Of a DNA stretch of 59,778 bases, positions 28,019-33,864 are shown piece by piece. The notes under the pieces were generated by a model. The model saw only the letters and a list, made by a program, of their open reading frames with translations, had not been told where the DNA came from and did not search any database. The stretch is from Escherichia phage vB_EcoS_SA80RD. Every line of letters starts with the position of its first letter. Positions within the stretch are counted from its first letter, which is position 1. Both the position numbers and the translations under genes were made by a program. The stretch is taken from the sequence record OL960575.1. One strand, written 5' to 3'.

Positions 28019-28245
28019 TAGCGATCCTCGATTGCTCTAATTGTGGTTAAATCTAATTCACAGGTTGGAGGGTATCCATAAAGCCCCATTTGTTTTCCTT
28101 GTGCATTAAACCATGTGCCTGACGGATCCTGCCACTGCTTAGGTGTCTTGTGGAGAAATACTACTCTGTTTTCACCGTAATAATTAATTCTTACGCCTGT
28201 GTGAGTATATTTACGTTTGCCTTTTGGTCTTCTTAAGTTAGCCAT
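28018..28245 (-). CDS. hypothetical protein
   Basis: 75-aa basic ORF. Confidence 0.4.
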   Translation of the reverse strand: MANLRRPKGKRKYTHTGVRINYYGENRVVFLHKTPKQWQDPSGTWFNAQGKQMGLYGYPPTCELDLTTIRAIEDR

Positions 28246-29165
28246 CAGAACAACTCCATTACACGATCACGGAATGTGCCGTCATGGGTGGCGTTAATGT
28301 TTGCAGCAATTACACCATACGCCCATAAGTTGAAGGCAGCACGTGATTCATAGATTGTTGATAAACGTTCGTAAGTGAAACCGTTTTGCTCAAGGTATTT
28401 AAGGACAGCGTCTTGTTCGATTTCAGTTAATGTTGAAACATGCTTACCAAAATGATGGCGGTCCGGTGACTTATCTGATACGCGCATTGGTCCCCACGGA
28501 GGGGTAACCACACTTCCAAACGCTGCCGCTTGAATCCAGGAGGATGAGTCACAGCTATACCACGGGTAACGCTCCATAATGGTTGTGGACGTAATACCAA
28601 ACGCATGAAGTTTAATCTTAGCACGTCCGCTACCATCGCAAATATATTTGTCCCACATGCGGTCCAGCCAAGTTTTAAGCGTGTCCGTCGAACGCCCTAC
28701 CATGCCCCCAATGGTGATATACTCGTAGTTCTTCATGTAATATTCGAGATAGCGGAAGTCCTCCCCAAAGTGAAAGCAAGGTAACGGTTTAGCACCGCGT
28801 GCTTCCATTTCAAGCTGATTACGGTAGGTTTGTAACGGATCACCGATACCATCTAGTACCGATGCCATTACAGCACCATCTTCTACCCGCAGGATATCTT
28901 TATTGCGTTTGATGTACTCACAGTATTCAACAATATCAATGTGAGCGCCCAAAGAGTGCGCGGAGAATGCACCGGAATCGAGAAATACTTTAGCCCCGTC
29001 CGCACGCATCTGATCAACATACTTTTGACGTCCAACGTAGTGGTATGATTCCAAAATATGGGGCAGATTGCGCGTGATATTTTTCTCATGCTCTGACAGC
29101 TTTTCATAACGCTGCTGGCCGGGCATATAGCCGTTAGTATACACAGCCGCCATGAATACATTCAT
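28245..29165 (-). CDS. dpdA: DpdA-like 7-deazaguanine DNA transglycosylase (TGT superfamily)
   Basis: 306 aa with VFLDSGAFS active-site-like motif; embedded in the folE/queD/queE/queC cluster. Confidence 0.65.
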   Translation of the reverse strand: MNVFMAAVYTNGYMPGQQRYEKLSEHEKNITRNLPHILESYHYVGRQKYVDQMRADGAKVFLDSGAFSAHSLGAHIDIVEYCEYIKRNKDILRVEDGAVMASVLDGIGDPLQTYRNQLEMEARGAKPLPCFHFGEDFRYLEYYMKNYEYITIGGMVGRSTDTLKTWLDRMWDKYICDGSGRAKIKLHAFGITSTTIMERYPWYSCDSSSWIQAAAFGSVVTPPWGPMRVSDKSPDRHHFGKHVSTLTEIEQDAVLKYLEQNGFTYERLSTIYESRAAFNLWAYGVIAANINATHDGTFRDRVMELF

Positions 29166-29244
29166 ATCTTAAATAAACCTCCAATGACTAAAAAGCCCAT
29201 ACCAGTATTATGACCGATATGGGCTTGATCTGTAAAGCTATCTA

Positions 29245-29880
29245 TTATTTACAAGCTTCAAGGAACTCACGGCGCCAAATTTGTCCCATTTCGGTACATT
29301 GGTCAGTTTCACCGCGGAACGCTTTGGTAATAGTAGAACTGCCGCATACCTGCTTAACACCGCGCGACTCCATGCACATATGCTTGGCGTCAATATAAAC
29401 ACATACAGCTTTCGGGTTTAAATGCTCCTGAATAGCGTCTGCAATCTGGTTAGTAAGACGTTCCTGAACTTGCAGTCGACGACTAAAAGCATCCACAACG
29501 CGAGACAGCTTACTAAGCCCAACGATCTTCCCATTGGGAACATAACCCACAACAGCATGACCGATAATAGGAGCCATGTGATGCTCACAATGACTGTATA
29601 CAGGAATATCACGGACAATGACCATTTCATTGGTGTTTTCCGCCCCATCCTCAAACGTCTTAAACAGACCAGCAATATCTACATCATAACCGCTAAACCA
29701 TGTAGCATAAGCTTTAGCGACACGATCTGGAGTCTCTGCTAATCCTGGACGTAATTCAATGCAATCTTCAATCTGAGTTAGTAAAGTATGCACCGCGCGA
29801 GCAATACGGAATTGAGTACCTTCGTTATCAATAGTAAATTTTGGCATGGTTTGCAGTTTCCTTGTTGTTAATGTGGTCAT
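29245..29880 (-). CDS. folE: GTP cyclohydrolase I
   Basis: CEHHMAPIIG and GLSKLSRVVDAFSRRLQVQERLT motifs match FolE. Confidence 0.85.
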   Translation of the reverse strand: MTTLTTRKLQTMPKFTIDNEGTQFRIARAVHTLLTQIEDCIELRPGLAETPDRVAKAYATWFSGYDVDIAGLFKTFEDGAENTNEMVIVRDIPVYSHCEHHMAPIIGHAVVGYVPNGKIVGLSKLSRVVDAFSRRLQVQERLTNQIADAIQEHLNPKAVCVYIDAKHMCMESRGVKQVCGSSTITKAFRGETDQCTEMGQIWRREFLEACK

Positions 29881-29881
29881 A

Positions 29882-30418
29882 TTAAAGGCTGTAGTTAACG
29901 TGACATTTCGAAGTTTCTTCGATGGTGCATTCTACAAGTTGAACACCATGTTCGTCAAGCAGTTGCGGCCCAATTACGTTAACCATATATGCAGCTAAGT
30001 TTTCCGCAGTTGGGTTGAACGGTAAAGACACCAGCGCCTGGAAAAAGTGATCGCGGTCCTGCTCGCTCATAACTGGGTTAAAATCCCCGTCTTCGTCGCA
30101 GTAGACAAGATGTTTTAATGTGGAGATAAGTTTATCCTGTTCCCAGTGAAGGAACTTATGATCCCAGTTATCTTCCAGCCATTGACAGAGCGTAGTCTTA
30201 ACCACACTAAAGTCGATAACGCGCCCAACTTCGTCCAGTTTACCTTCAACGGAGAAACCTTTCGCGCCCGGGATGTAGTTTTCGCTTTCTACGCGCTTCG
30301 GTGCAACCTTAAAGTGAAACTTATAGTTGTGACCGTGGAGGTGGCGACATTTGCTTTCGTGACCTACAACACGATGTCCGGCGCAAATTTCATGGGAACG
30401 AATTACTGTATAGCTCAT
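29882..30418 (-). CDS. queD: 6-carboxy-5,6,7,8-tetrahydropterin synthase
   Basis: CxxxHGH zinc motif (CRHLHGHNYKF); AGAGGA RBS. Confidence 0.8.
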   Translation of the reverse strand: MSYTVIRSHEICAGHRVVGHESKCRHLHGHNYKFHFKVAPKRVESENYIPGAKGFSVEGKLDEVGRVIDFSVVKTTLCQWLEDNWDHKFLHWEQDKLISTLKHLVYCDEDGDFNPVMSEQDRDHFFQALVSLPFNPTAENLAAYMVNVIGPQLLDEHGVQLVECTIEETSKCHVNYSL

Positions 30419-30419
30419 T

Positions 30420-32592: not shown

Positions 32593-32593
32593 T

Positions 32594-32782
32594 TTAGAAA
32601 CCTTTAAGGCTAATATTAAGGTTAATGACTACTTGTTCAACTACAGCTTCAGAGGTTACCTGACGCTGGTGTATCTCAAGCTCCGAATGTATTTTCTTGG
32701 ATGCAGCACGACAAATAGCGTCATTCAACTCGTCTTGTAAACGTTGAATTTTCTGCATAAGGATTACAGTTTCTTCATTCAT
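32594..32782 (-). CDS. hypothetical protein
   Basis: 62-aa ORF. Confidence 0.35.
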   Translation of the reverse strand: MNEETVILMQKIQRLQDELNDAICRAASKKIHSELEIHQRQVTSEAVVEQVVINLNISLKGF

Positions 32783-32987
32783 TTACTTCACCTTTAATAT
32801 CACAAGGGTTAATTGTTACGTTAGACATCACAATTGGATGATTGCGCGCTCCAATTGTGCTAACGTAATTAATATCTAATTCTACATGCACGCCCTGCAT
32901 AGTAGCGTGAGCAATTGAAGAATTAAGTTTTTCTACCAGCTCAGTAATCATTTCCTGATGCTGTTTCGCTTCTTCCAAAGTGATCAT
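32775..32987 (-). CDS. hypothetical protein
   Basis: About 70 aa from ATG 32987 with GAGG RBS. Confidence 0.35.
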   Translation of the reverse strand: MITLEEAKQHQEMITELVEKLNSSIAHATMQGVHVELDINYVSTIGARNHPIVMSNVTINPCDIKGEVNE

Positions 32988-32995
32988 TTTAGACC

Positions 32996-33157
32996 TCACA
33001 GAGCTGTAATAATAGAATTCGGATGCTTGTTTCGAAAATCTTGCCATTCCGCAGAAAAGAAATAGTAAGCATCGCGCCGGATCTTTCTTTTATCCATATT
33101 CGGGTACAACTTAGTCATAACACGAATATGTGAACTAATGCGTTTTAGTTTTGTCAT
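32996..33157 (-). CDS. small basic hypothetical protein (53 aa)
   Basis: ATG overlaps the queE stop (TGATG) with GGGGTGGAG RBS; below the ORF-track size cutoff. Confidence 0.25.
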   Translation of the reverse strand: MTKLKRISSHIRVMTKLYPNMDKRKIRRDAYYFFSAEWQDFRNKHPNSIITAL

Positions 33158-33864
33158 CACTCCACCCCGATATATTTGTGAACCTGAAGCTGCAACGTGT
33201 AACCGTGTTTCATACAGCTTTGGACAACGGCTTGGATATTACTGTGGTTAAGGTCTTCATCCTGCTCGTCCATTGGCTGTAAATATATCTTACCCTTGAA
33301 ACCCTTCGGAGGTCTAGCGATAAATGGCGTAGCTTGATGATCTAATGCCTGAAGCGGCAAACCATCTTCCACGTTTACACAGCACGCTTTAAGTACATAT
33401 TTAAATGCATTAGCGCGGCGCAGCACAGAAGGATGAATCTTTGAGGTCTTGGGACTACATACAATTACAGGTAACTGGGAAAAGTTCTTAGGTAAAGGCA
33501 TAGACCCATTAGTTTCAATTTGCACCAAATACTCGCGCGATAACAGTTGTTCAATAAACGGGTTAATTTGCTGACGGAACGGTTCACCCCCAGTGATAAC
33601 CACAAGTGAGGTGCTATTGCCGGATTCCAGCTTACGGCTTTCAATTAAACGCATAATATCGACAATGTGATAAAGACTACGACCAACAGTATAATCTGTA
33701 TCGCAGCCAGGGCATTGCAGATTACACCCAGCAAGACGCACAAATACAGCAGGTTGGCCGCAGAATGGACCTTCACCCTGAATGGTAGAGAATACCGAAT
33801 GCACGTCTAAATACATATCGTTTTCTTTAGAACGGGACTCGGGAGCTTGTTGATTAATATTCAT
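33157..33864 (-). CDS. queE: 7-carboxy-7-deazaguanine synthase (radical SAM)
   Basis: IQGEGPFCGQPAVFVRLAGCNLQCPGCDT matches the QueE radical-SAM Cys motif; AGAGGA RBS. Confidence 0.85.
   Translation of the reverse strand: MNINQQAPESRSKENDMYLDVHSVFSTIQGEGPFCGQPAVFVRLAGCNLQCPGCDTDYTVGRSLYHIVDIMRLIESRKLESGNSTSLVVITGGEPFRQQINPFIEQLLSREYLVQIETNGSMPLPKNFSQLPVIVCSPKTSKIHPSVLRRANAFKYVLKACCVNVEDGLPLQALDHQATPFIARPPKGFKGKIYLQPMDEQDEDLNHSNIQAVVQSCMKHGYTLQLQVHKYIGVE

What the first reader, a model, noticed from the sequence alone, without database searches (positions are those of the whole stretch)
28245..33864. Complete 7-deazaguanine DNA hypermodification cluster with its own precursor transporter
Five enzymes sit together on the minus strand: FolE (29245-29880), QueD (29882-30418), QueE (33157-33864), QueC (31870-32592) and a DpdA-like DNA transglycosylase (28245-29165), each identified from catalytic motifs. 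This pathway makes preQ0 and inserts it into DNA in place of guanine, a known anti-restriction strategy of some phages. QueC here is a plain 240-aa enzyme with no fused amidotransferase, so the predicted product is 2'-deoxy-7-cyano-7-deazaguanosine rather than archaeosine. An embedded YhhQ-like membrane transporter (31270-31749) suggests the phage also scavenges precursor from the medium or host, which is less commonly noted. Four small unknown ORFs are interspersed in the cluster (30420-30689, 30686-31267, 32594-32782, 32775-32987) and could be accessory factors.
Basis: partly seen in the sequence, partly recalled or inferred. Interest (0 to 1): 0.7.

Follow-up and report, generated by a model that had tools for sequence, protein, structure and literature searches.

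The report
Known Seuratvirus dPreQ0 DNA-modification gene cluster
The window is a complete genome of an E. coli phage of the genus Seuratvirus, and the flagged genes are its already characterised cluster for replacing about a quarter of DNA guanines with 7-cyano-7-deazaguanine (preQ0) to evade restriction, transporter gene included, so the finding is correct but ordinary.

Summary
All eleven ORFs exist at the stated coordinates on the minus strand, and profile searches support FolE, QueD, QueE, QueC, a DpdA-type transglycosylase and a short VUT/YhhQ-family membrane protein.

The window is a complete Seuratvirus (Queuovirinae) genome, collinear with Escherichia phage CAjan. Its DpdA and YhhQ-like proteins are 100% identical to CAjan gp35 and gp41. 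QueE is 99.6% identical and QueC 98%.

- LC-MS/MS found dPreQ0 at about 32% of G.
- Deleting dpdA, folE or queC abolished or reduced the modification.
- Modified sites are GA and GGC.
- Deleting yhhQ had no effect.

GenBank records of relatives already label the gene "preQ0 transporter".

No amidotransferase or other tailoring enzyme was found, so dPreQ0 is the expected product. GA plus GGC covers 28.5% of G here, against 28.2% in CAjan.

The small ORFs are mostly unlikely to be pathway factors. They sit in variable slots, are absent from other genera that carry the pathway, or carry a domain spread through phages that lack dpdA.

Novelty: already known. Interest: low.

The parts
28018..28245 (-). 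75-aa ORF of unknown function, homologue of CAjan gp34. It is the first gene of the 12-gene cluster as drawn by Kot et al. 2020.
   Evidence: 100% aa identity to CAjan gp34. PHROG 38388, unknown function. No homologue found in the JenP2, PaMx25, Vid5 or Vibrio 83AMN loci.
28245..29165 (-). DpdA (phage DpdA1 type), a DNA guanine transglycosylase that exchanges G for preQ0 in double-stranded DNA.
   Evidence: 100% aa identity over 306 aa to CAjan gp35. PHROG 887, 323 bits. All residues named in the published CAjan model are present: D63, S64, F67, D105, H132, G153, G154, F189, D206 (PMC7544227). The CAjan dpdA deletion loses all 7-deazaguanine (PMC6884629).
29166..29244 (.). 79-bp intergenic gap. 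The slot between dpdA and folE is empty here.
   Evidence: Relatives carry a 68-77 aa ORF (CAjan gp36, KurtStettler, Greed, SA126VB) or a 185-aa ORF (SHIN8) in this slot. The blastn breakpoints lie at 29165/29178.
29245..29880 (-). FolE, GTP cyclohydrolase I (GTP to dihydroneopterin triphosphate).
   Evidence: PF01227, 214 bits; TIGR00063, 194.2 bits against a 181.6 cut-off. Zn-site motifs CEHH (98) and HxC (167) are present. 95% aa identity to KurtStettler and 78% to CAjan.
29882..30418 (-). QueD, 6-carboxy-5,6,7,8-tetrahydropterin synthase.
   Evidence: PF01242, 76 bits against a 22.4 cut-off. TIGR03367, 60 bits, below its 89 cut-off; the match is spread over residues 7-149 against a 92-position model. 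PHROG 2389, 181 bits. C24-x-H-x-H-G-H motif present. About 74% aa identity to the five Seuratvirus relatives compared; the closest DNA match is ECP2304 at 88.5%.
30420..30689 (-). 89-aa ORF of unknown function in a variable slot.
   Evidence: No Pfam, NCBIfam or PHROG hit. Found in SHIN8 (93% aa), and the DNA is matched in ECP2304, KS_A3, KS_S4 and VogelGryff. CAjan has a non-homologous gp39 here, and KurtStettler, Greed and SA126VB have nothing.
30686..31267 (-). 193-aa ORF of unknown function, homologue of CAjan gp40. It has a variable N-terminal half and a highly conserved C-terminal domain of about 80 aa.
31270..31749 (-). Short VUT/COG1738-family membrane protein (159 aa, five predicted helices). 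This is the published 'putative preQ0 transporter YhhQ' of Seuratvirus.
   Evidence: 100% aa identity to CAjan gp41. PF02592, 25.3 bits (cut-off 27.2) for this sequence, but all 38 aligned homologues match PF02592 at E up to 0.01, the best at 2e-11. hhalign against E. coli YhhQ gave E 5.7e-4 over YhhQ residues 44-171. AF2 pLDDT 79, all-helical. A BFVD search matched 'Putative vitamin uptake transporter' with probability 0.99 and TM 0.62.
31750..31869 (-). 120-bp intergenic region between queC and the VUT gene, containing a GC-rich hairpin.
   Evidence: MFE -27.9 kcal/mol, z-score -1.77, not significant. No Rfam match, so no preQ1 riboswitch was found. SA126VB annotates a terminator at the equivalent place.
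31870..32592 (-). QueC, 7-cyano-7-deazaguanine (preQ0) synthase, stand-alone with no Gat domain.
   Evidence: PF06508, 252 bits; TIGR00364, 243 bits against a 150 cut-off, covering model positions 1-201 from residue 17. SGGQDS PP-loop and C-terminal Cys cluster present. 98% identity to CAjan gp42. Only 29% identity to the QueC half of the JenP2 and Vid5 Gat-QueC proteins, and the Gat half has no match anywhere in the window.
32594..32782 (-). 62-aa ORF of unknown function, homologue of CAjan gp43.
   Evidence: PHROG 24420, unknown function. 87-98% identity within Seuratvirus. Absent from the other genera examined. Weak paralogue of the next ORF (E 9e-5).
32775..32987 (-). 70-aa ORF of unknown function, homologue of CAjan gp44. 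Some records label it 'radical SAM domain-containing protein'.
   Evidence: PHROG 26258. No radical-SAM or other credible Pfam hit. 93-99% identity within Seuratvirus. Absent from the other genera examined.
32996..33160 (-). 54-aa basic ORF inside a 165-bp window-specific insertion (32989-33153).
   Evidence: Its start overlaps the queE stop codon, and its own stop lies 8 nt before the next ATG. No DNA match in 50,697 phage records. No PHROG or Pfam family. Four homologues of 53-54 aa among 1.84 billion representative proteins, the best at E 7e-24.
33157..33864 (-). QueE, 7-carboxy-7-deazaguanine synthase (radical SAM).
   Evidence: PHROG 2076, 231 bits. Five NCBIfam QueE models at 71-95 bits, all below their cut-offs. 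C47-x3-C-x2-C motif present. 99.6% identity to CAjan gp45.
33886..33939 (-). Terminator-like hairpin (33909-33886) and an overlapping promoter-like site (33939-33910), directly upstream of queE.
   Evidence: 9-bp stem with 6 GC pairs followed by TTTTT; promoter-like TTGTAA-18-TATAAT, 10 of 12 matches. SA126VB annotates a terminator and a promoter at the equivalent place. These are consensus matches only.

Best explanation
This is the 7-deazaguanine DNA-modification module of a Seuratvirus phage. It lies in the replication gene block between the DNA polymerase and clamp genes and the helicase gene.

FolE, QueD, QueE and QueC convert GTP through H2NTP, CPH4 and CDG to the free base preQ0. DpdA then exchanges guanine for preQ0 in double-stranded phage DNA after replication, at GA and GGC sites. 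The result is 2'-deoxy-7-cyano-7-deazaguanosine at roughly a quarter to a third of G positions, which blocks many restriction enzymes. No amidotransferase, QueF or other tailoring enzyme was found, so preQ0 is the final base.

The 159-aa VUT-family membrane protein is most likely an auxiliary importer of preQ0 or a close 7-deazapurine. It would top up the precursor pool and is not needed when de novo synthesis works.

Shown here: gene presence, family membership, catalytic motifs, near-identity to CAjan, and absence of a Gat domain.
Shown in CAjan, not in this phage: the dPreQ0 chemistry, the requirement for dpdA, folE and queC, the target motifs, restriction protection, and dispensability of yhhQ.
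Inferred: transport activity and substrate of the short VUT.
For: - The ORFs and their family matches are confirmed, and the catalytic and ligand motifs are intact.
- The window is collinear with CAjan and other Seuratvirus genomes at 91-97% nucleotide identity.
- DpdA and the VUT protein are 100% identical to CAjan, QueE 99.6%, QueC 98%.
- In CAjan, dPreQ0 was measured at 70,628 per 10^6 nt (about 32% of G), other deazaguanines were below 6 per 10^6 nt, and the dpdA deletion lost all modification (PMC6884629).
- folE and queC deletions reduce dPreQ0 about 12-fold. The target motifs are GA and GGC. The yhhQ deletion is unchanged (PMC7544227).
- GA plus GGC covers 28.5% of G in this window, against 23.96% + 4.28% in CAjan (PMC10484667).
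- The Gat half of the JenP2 and Vid5 Gat-QueC proteins has no match in the window. The ORFs in the 9.4 kb not shared with CAjan are four HNH endonucleases and tail-fibre, tail-tip and other variants of CAjan genes, plus small ORFs without a CAjan match, none with a Pfam family.
- VUT genes of two unrelated lineages sit inside deazaguanine clusters. The short form occurs in Seuratvirus and Vibrio phage 83AMN. Vid5 carries a full-length form 52% identical to E. coli YhhQ.
Against: - There is no chemical or genetic data for this particular phage.
- FolE and QueD are only 78% and 74% identical to the CAjan proteins.
- QueD and QueE fall below the NCBIfam equivalog cut-offs.
- The VUT protein is sub-threshold in both Pfam and NCBIfam on its own, and about 60 residues shorter than E. 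coli YhhQ. Its hhalign probability against a single YhhQ sequence is only 30%.
- Deleting the identical gene in CAjan had no measurable effect on modification in rich medium (PMC7544227), so no transport phenotype has ever been seen.
Confidence: 0.93

Rival explanations
1. The final DNA base is not preQ0 but a further derivative (archaeosine dG+, dADG, dPreQ1 or a methyl/formyl derivative), made by an unrecognised tailoring enzyme among the unknown ORFs.
For: Several ORFs in and near the cluster have no assigned function. Three elements differ from CAjan: orf89, orf54 and a divergent orf193.
Against: The Gat domain has no match anywhere in the window. The only QueF-like signal is the expected T-fold cross-hit inside FolE. 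The window-specific ORFs of 54-129 aa have no enzyme-family match. CAjan, with near-identical QueC and DpdA, has less than 6 per 10^6 nt of every other derivative (PMC6884629).
Confidence: 0.04
2. The cluster acts on tRNA or on the host queuosine pool to tune translation rather than on phage DNA, as the older annotation 'queuine tRNA-ribosyltransferase' implies.
For: PHROG and many GenBank records still name the transglycosylase 'queuine tRNA-ribosyltransferase'.
Against: The identical CAjan protein is required for dPreQ0 in DNA, and its loss makes the DNA sensitive to restriction (PMC6884629, PMC7544227). There is no Pfam TGT match, and only 16.9 bits to the bacterial DpdA model.
Confidence: 0.02
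3. The 159-aa VUT-family protein is not a preQ0 importer. It may carry a different substrate, act as an exporter, or have a membrane role unrelated to transport. Its place in the cluster would then be historical.
For: It is sub-threshold against both curated models and has no significant pairwise similarity to E. coli YhhQ. It lacks about 30 N-terminal and 50 C-terminal residues of YhhQ. The CAjan yhhQ deletion has no modification phenotype (PMC7544227). E. coli already has its own YhhQ.
Against: All 38 homologues match PF02592. The predicted fold matches viral VUT proteins. The short form is conserved next to queC in distant Vibrio phages. Vid5 independently acquired a true YhhQ orthologue in the same cluster, which points to selection for 7-deazapurine uptake.
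Confidence: 0.25
4. The interspersed small ORFs (89, 193, 62, 70 and 54 aa) are dedicated accessory factors of the modification pathway, for example specificity or regulatory subunits.
For: orf62, orf70 and the 75-aa gp34 homologue are conserved at 87-100% in every Seuratvirus cluster compared. A protein with the orf193 C-terminal domain also sits inside the Nonagvirus JenP2 cluster. CAjan DpdA has a second motif (GGC) that the iggy DpdA lacks (PMC10484667), which leaves room for a specificity factor.
Against: None of them occurs in the Nipunavirus, Vid5 or Vibrio clusters, which run the same core pathway. The gp36, gp39/orf89 and orf54 slots differ between strains, and the gp36 slot is empty here. 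The orf193 domain is in 742 phage records against 236 with a DpdA homologue, mostly Salmonella siphoviruses, and only 3 Salmonella phage records carry DpdA. No family or fold assignment was obtained.
Confidence: 0.1

Closest known systems
Escherichia phage CAjan (NC_028776) 7-deazaguanine modification cluster, gp34-gp45 (Hutinet et al. 2019, PMC6884629; Kot et al. 2020, PMC7544227)
   Same: Same genus-level genome, collinear, with the same gene order: dpdA, folE, queD, yhhQ, queC, queE. DpdA and the YhhQ-like protein are 100% identical, QueE 99.6% and QueC 98%. The GA+GGC fraction of G is the same: 28.5% here against 28.2% in CAjan (PMC10484667).
   Different: FolE is 78% and QueD 74% identical, from a mosaic segment. 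gp36 is absent. gp39 is replaced by the unrelated orf89. The gp40 homologue is only 55% identical. An extra 54-aa ORF lies between the gp44 homologue and queE.
Other Seuratvirus isolates (Seurat, KurtStettler/Bas22, SHIN8, Greed, SA126VB, ECP2304)
   Same: 91-95% nucleotide identity over 84-93% of the cluster, with the same annotations, including 'preQ0 transporter YhhQ' and 'dPreQ0 synthase QueC'.
   Different: Each strain has its own combination of small ORFs in the three variable slots. No record in the phage collection matches the whole window at 99% or more.
Nonagvirus (9g, JenP2), Nipunavirus (PaMx25) and Vidquintavirus (Vid5) archaeosine (dG+) clusters
   Same: Same synteny between the polymerase/clamp genes and the helicase gene. 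DpdA is 69-72% identical, FolE 62-76%, QueD 44-74% and QueE 51-63%.
   Different: They carry a 466-487 aa Gat-QueC fusion, whose QueC half is only 28-29% identical to the window's QueC. They have no short VUT, and they lack orf62 and orf70. Their product is dG+ rather than dPreQ0 (PMC6884629).
E. coli YhhQ / COG1738 / PF02592 VUT family queuosine-precursor transporter
   Same: Same Pfam family at the profile level. A conserved core aligns to YhhQ residues 44-171. It is a polytopic helical membrane protein.
   Different: 159 aa against 221 aa. No significant pairwise similarity. Below the Pfam and NCBIfam cut-offs as a single sequence. Transport has never been demonstrated for the phage form.

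Membership tests
GTP cyclohydrolase I (FolE, PF01227 / TIGR00063) | Score above the curated family cut-offs. | tested here: met
   PF01227, 214.4 bits against a 27 cut-off. TIGR00063, 194.2 bits against 181.6.
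GTP cyclohydrolase I (FolE, PF01227 / TIGR00063) | Zn-binding Cys/His motifs (CxHH and HxC). | tested here: met
   C98-E-H-H and H167-M-C are present. That these are the Zn ligands comes from general knowledge of FolE.
QueD, 6-carboxytetrahydropterin synthase (PF01242 / TIGR03367) | Score above the curated cut-offs. | tested here: inconclusive
   The Pfam PTPS cut-off is met (76.1 bits against 22.4). The NCBIfam QueD equivalog cut-off is not met (60.2 against 89.25). PHROG QueD-like scores 180.6 bits.
QueD, 6-carboxytetrahydropterin synthase (PF01242 / TIGR03367) | Catalytic Cys and Zn-binding His triad near the N-terminus. | tested here: met
   C24-R-H-L-H-G-H, together with H15 and H20.
QueE, 7-carboxy-7-deazaguanine synthase (radical SAM) | CxxxCxxC [4Fe-4S] motif. 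| tested here: met
   C47-N-L-Q-C-P-G-C.
QueE, 7-carboxy-7-deazaguanine synthase (radical SAM) | Score above a curated QueE equivalog cut-off. | tested here: not met
   The best hit is TIGR04322 at 95.4 bits against a 200 cut-off. Five QueE models hit at 71-95 bits, all below their cut-offs. The protein belongs to the phage QueE-like PHROG 2076 (231 bits) and is 99.6% identical to CAjan gp45.
QueC, 7-cyano-7-deazaguanine synthase (PF06508 / TIGR00364) | Score above the cut-offs, PP-loop SGGxDS motif and C-terminal Zn Cys cluster. | tested here: met
   PF06508, 251.6 bits. TIGR00364, 243 bits against 150.3. S22-GGQDS and C200...C215-x2-C-x2-C are present.
Gat-QueC (archaeosine-type fusion of phage 9g) | N-terminal class-II glutamine amidotransferase domain fused to QueC, or encoded elsewhere in the genome. 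| tested here: not met
   QueC is 240 aa, and the QueC model starts at residue 17. tblastn with JenP2 and Vid5 Gat-QueC hits only the QueC half; nothing in the window matches the Gat half.
Phage DpdA1 (DNA guanine transglycosylase of 9g/CAjan type) | Orthology to an experimentally validated DpdA1. | tested here: met
   100% identity over 306 aa to CAjan gp35. CAjan dpdA is essential for dPreQ0 in DNA (PMC6884629).
Phage DpdA1 (DNA guanine transglycosylase of 9g/CAjan type) | Two catalytic Asp residues and the preQ0/guanine pocket residues. | tested here: met
   D206 (nucleophile) and D63, plus S64, F67, D105, H132, G153, G154 and F189, are all present. The residue roles come from the homology model in PMC7544227.
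Bacterial DpdA (NF041059) / canonical TGT (PF01702) | Score above the curated cut-off. | tested here: not met
   NF041059, 16.9 bits against a 200 cut-off. No Pfam TGT hit at E up to 0.01. It works like these enzymes but is a separate phage subfamily.
VUT / COG1738 / YhhQ queuosine-precursor transporter (PF02592, TIGR00697) | Score above the curated cut-offs. | tested here: not met
   PF02592, 25.3 bits against 27.2. TIGR00697, 22.2 bits against 50.95.
VUT / COG1738 / YhhQ queuosine-precursor transporter (PF02592, TIGR00697) | Family-level homology (profile and fold). | tested here: met
   All 38 aligned homologues match PF02592 at E up to 0.01, the best at 2.2e-11. hhalign against E. coli YhhQ gave E 5.7e-4 over 101 columns. 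The AF2 model (pLDDT 79) matches a viral 'Putative vitamin uptake transporter' with probability 0.99.
VUT / COG1738 / YhhQ queuosine-precursor transporter (PF02592, TIGR00697) | Full-length architecture (about 220 aa). | tested here: not met
   159 aa with five predicted helices. The alignment covers only YhhQ residues 44-171.
VUT / COG1738 / YhhQ queuosine-precursor transporter (PF02592, TIGR00697) | Demonstrated preQ0 uptake. | not testable with these tools
   The only experiment on the identical protein (the CAjan yhhQ deletion) showed no change in DNA modification (PMC7544227).
dPreQ0-modified phage genome | 2'-deoxy-7-cyano-7-deazaguanosine detected in virion DNA. | not testable with these tools
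   Shown for CAjan by LC-MS/MS (PMC6884629). It is inferred here from near-identical enzymes.

The most novel reading that the evidence does not exclude
The short (155-165 aa, five-helix) VUT proteins of Seuratvirus and related Vibrio phages are a distinct, minimal, phage-specific class of 7-deazapurine importer. Their benefit would appear only when de novo synthesis is limiting, for example early in infection, in hosts lacking the queuosine pathway, or when GTP is scarce. That would explain why the CAjan yhhQ deletion showed no phenotype in rich medium.
Probability: 0.3. Interest if true: 0.3.

Novelty: already known. Interest (0 to 1): 0.1.

Why it matters
It matters little as a discovery. 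The system, its chemistry, its target motifs, its anti-restriction role and the embedded transporter gene are all published for a phage whose key proteins are identical to these.

The practical value is correct annotation. This genome should be expected to carry dPreQ0 at about 28% of its G positions (GA and GGC sites). That affects restriction cloning, nanopore base-calling and Cas9 targeting of this phage.

Two small questions remain open: whether the short VUT protein transports anything, and what the conserved 62-aa/70-aa ORF pair does.

Tried and rejected
1. Riboswitch upstream of the VUT gene. Bacterial COG1738 genes are often under preQ1 riboswitches (from my own knowledge, not checked here). 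An Rfam E-value scan of 27900-35500 found nothing relevant. The 120-nt gap folds no better than shuffled sequence (z -1.77).

3. Solved structure for the VUT family. A profile search of PDB sequences found none. The AFDB50 fold library was unavailable.

4. Link to Ksap1, the Avs2 trigger. The search surfaced PMC11564622, but Ksap1 belongs to Dhillonvirus, and the Seuratvirus trigger is the large terminase, so it is irrelevant here.

5. Hidden tailoring enzyme in window-specific DNA. The 9.4 kb without a CAjan match holds four HNH endonuclease ORFs and tail-fibre, tail-tip and other variants of CAjan genes, plus small ORFs without a CAjan match. The small ORFs that were scanned have no Pfam family.

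6. Source of orf54. An exact-sequence look-up of encoding contigs found no record.

Full report
**Observation**

The ORF listing for 26000-36500 shows an uninterrupted run of minus-strand genes.

Profile searches agree with the family assignments:
- FolE: PF01227 at 214 bits, and TIGR00063 at 194 bits, above its cut-off.
- QueD: PF01242 at 76 bits, and PHROG QueD-like at 181 bits.
- QueC: PF06508 at 252 bits, and TIGR00364 at 243 bits, above its cut-off.
- QueE: radical-SAM Pfam hits, five NCBIfam QueE models at 71-95 bits (all below their cut-offs), and PHROG QueE-like at 231 bits.
- DpdA: PHROG 887 at 323 bits. There is no Pfam TGT hit, and only 17 bits to the bacterial DpdA model.
- The 159-aa membrane protein: PF02592 (Vut_1) at 25.3 bits against a 27.2 cut-off, and TIGR00697 at 22 bits against 51.

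Two ORFs were missed. One is a 54-aa ORF at 32996-33160. The other is the 75-aa ORF at 28018-28245.

**What the window is**

Megablast of the cluster and of both genome arms against 50,697 phage records returns Seuratvirus (Queuovirinae) phages at 91-97% identity, collinear from the first base. Window position 12 corresponds to CAjan position 1. The window is therefore a complete Seuratvirus genome. It is a new mosaic strain, not identical to any record.

The cluster lies in the replication block. DNA polymerase (25080-27119) and a clamp-like processivity factor (27065-28018) sit on one side. Two conserved unknown genes and an SF2 helicase (35419-37395) sit on the other.

**Identity to the characterised system**

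tblastn of the window's proteins against CAjan, KurtStettler, SA126VB, SHIN8 and Greed gave these identities to CAjan:

| Protein | Identity to CAjan |
|---|---|
| DpdA (gp35) | 100% |
| VUT protein (gp41) | 100% |
| QueE | 99.6% |
| QueC | 98% |
| FolE | 78% (95% to KurtStettler) |
| QueD | about 74% (88.5% nt to ECP2304) |

Every DpdA residue named in the published CAjan model is present (PMC7544227).

For CAjan the literature shows the following:
- dPreQ0 is present at 70,628 per 10^6 nt (about 32% of G), with all other 7-deazaguanines below 6 per 10^6 nt.
- Deleting dpdA causes complete loss of the modification and loss of restriction protection (PMC6884629).
- The cluster has twelve genes, six with assigned functions, including 'yhhQ, putative preQ0 transporter'.
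- Deleting folE or queC reduces modification about 12-fold.
- Deleting yhhQ gives a pattern indistinguishable from wild type.
- The target motifs are GA and GGC (PMC7544227).

**Predicted product**

QueC is a stand-alone 240-aa protein, and the QueC model begins at residue 17. In Nonagvirus, Nipunavirus and Vid5 the syntenic gene is a 466-487 aa Gat-QueC fusion. tblastn with two such fusions hits only the QueC half, at 29% identity. Nothing in the window matches the Gat half.

The 9.4 kb of the window that has no blastn match in CAjan contains four HNH endonuclease ORFs and tail-fibre, tail-tip and other variants of CAjan genes. It also contains small ORFs with no CAjan match. Pfam scans of the small ORFs, run at E up to 1, gave no credible family. 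dPreQ0 is therefore the expected end product.

GA and GGC sites account for 24.4% and 4.0% of G on both strands, 28.5% in total or 63 sites per 10^3 nt. The published CAjan figures are 23.96% and 4.28% (PMC10484667).

One further detail: QueC is only 29-35% identical to the QueC moiety in the other genera, whereas DpdA, FolE, QueD and QueE are 44-76% identical. The dPreQ0 and dG+ lineages therefore differ by replacement of queC, not by simple loss of a domain. This was already remarked in PMC10484667 and PMC8310023.

**The transporter**

The protein belongs to a family of 152-191 aa proteins found mainly on contigs of about 60 kb. All 38 aligned members match PF02592 at E up to 0.01, the best at 2e-11.

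A profile comparison against E. coli YhhQ aligns 101 columns to YhhQ residues 44-171, with E 5.7e-4 and probability 30% against a single-sequence template. Pairwise BLASTP finds nothing significant.

The AF2 model (pLDDT 79) has five long helices. Its best BFVD matches include a 244-aa 'Putative vitamin uptake transporter' at probability 0.99 and TM 0.62. No solved structure of the family was found.

It is therefore a divergent, shortened VUT-family member. It works-like and is homologous to YhhQ, but it fails the curated cut-offs and the full-length architecture.

Comparative context supports a link to 7-deazapurines. The short form sits directly after queC in Vibrio phage 83AMN at 67% identity. 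Vid5 carries, next to queE, a full-length VUT that is 52% identical to E. coli YhhQ. That makes two independent acquisitions.

Transport itself is unproven, and the only genetic test was negative (PMC7544227). The scavenging idea is already in print (PMC6884629, PMC7544227, PMC8310023).

**The small ORFs**

- orf62 and orf70 (CAjan gp43 and gp44) are conserved at 87-99% within Seuratvirus and are weak tandem paralogues (E 9e-5). They are absent from the JenP2, PaMx25, Vid5 and Vibrio clusters.
- orf89 occurs only in some strains and replaces the unrelated CAjan gp39.
- The gp36 slot between dpdA and folE is empty here.
- A 165-bp window-specific insertion (32989-33153) carries a 54-aa basic ORF that is translationally coupled to queE. 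It has no DNA match in the phage collection and only four small homologues among 1.84 billion representative proteins.

Overall, the gaps between the enzyme genes behave as variable slots for small genes rather than as positions for conserved accessory subunits. A role for the orf62/orf70 pair cannot be excluded.

**Regulatory features**

A strong terminator-like hairpin and a promoter-like site lie just upstream of queE, at 33939-33886. They match features annotated in SA126VB.

No Rfam family, including the preQ1 riboswitches, matches anywhere in 27900-35500. The 120-nt gap upstream of the VUT gene is not unusually structured.

**Verdict**

The feature is the already characterised Seuratvirus dPreQ0 module, with the key proteins identical to those of CAjan. 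The transporter is neither new nor under-noted, and the accessory-factor suggestion is largely not supported. Novelty: already known. Interest: low.

Noticed in passing
window 32989-33153 (ORF 32996-33160, minus strand): A 165-bp insertion between the gp44 homologue and queE, absent from the five relatives aligned and with no DNA match in the phage collection. It encodes a 54-aa basic protein whose start overlaps the queE stop codon. Only four homologues of 53-54 aa exist among 1.84 billion representative proteins. A faint CHDNT/HMG-box-like Pfam hit (E 0.12) is probably noise.
   Followed up: partly
window 30686-31267, residues about 104-190 of the product: A near-invariant C-terminal domain (NKYQ..VDVYDVL.AW..NPALQHLIKKALQPGERGHK..EDL.DI.ASA.RA) attached to many different N-termini. 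It occurs in 742 phage records, mostly Salmonella and Escherichia siphoviruses without dpdA. It has no Pfam family and no informative fold match. This is a widespread, strongly conserved phage domain of unknown function.
   Followed up: partly
window 29166-29244, 30420-30689 and 32989-33153: Three slots between the enzyme genes differ in content between Seuratvirus strains. The slots can be empty or hold ORFs of 54 to 185 aa, and at least some of the alternatives are unrelated to each other. This suggests hot spots for exchange of small genes inside an otherwise conserved operon.
   Followed up: partly
window 29178-30430 (folE and queD): This segment is only 81-87% identical in DNA to relatives that are 93-98% identical on either side. 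QueD is about 74% identical in protein to five relatives. This is a recombinational mosaic within the cluster.
   Followed up: partly
window 32594-32782 and 32775-32987: The 62-aa and 70-aa ORFs are weak tandem paralogues (BLASTP E 9e-5). Both are conserved across Seuratvirus. The 70-aa one is labelled 'radical SAM domain-containing protein' in PHROGs and RefSeq, with no support from Pfam.
   Followed up: partly
window 37392-37904, 44698-45228, 49234-49758 and 54121-54621: Four paralogous HNH-type homing endonuclease ORFs (166-176 aa) lie in segments with no DNA match in CAjan. They are only 33-51% identical to a CAjan protein.
   Followed up: no
window 33934-34746 (minus strand): A 270-aa Ala/Lys-rich protein directly upstream of queE. 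Its C-terminal part is conserved (42-55% identity) next to queE in all four other genera examined. It is variously annotated 'FtrA-domain transcriptional activator' or 'plectin' and has no credible Pfam family. It is the only non-enzyme neighbour conserved across these clusters.
   Followed up: partly
L011 (Pantoea phage Vid5) 2327-2965: Vid5 carries a full-length VUT gene 52% identical to E. coli YhhQ, adjacent to queE. It is unrelated at the pairwise level to the short Seuratvirus VUT. This indicates two independent captures of VUT transporters by deazaguanine clusters.
   Followed up: yes
window 17098-21099: The tail-tip (J-like) C-terminus and the tail-fibre gene are largely unrelated to those of CAjan, which suggests a different receptor specificity.
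   Followed up: no
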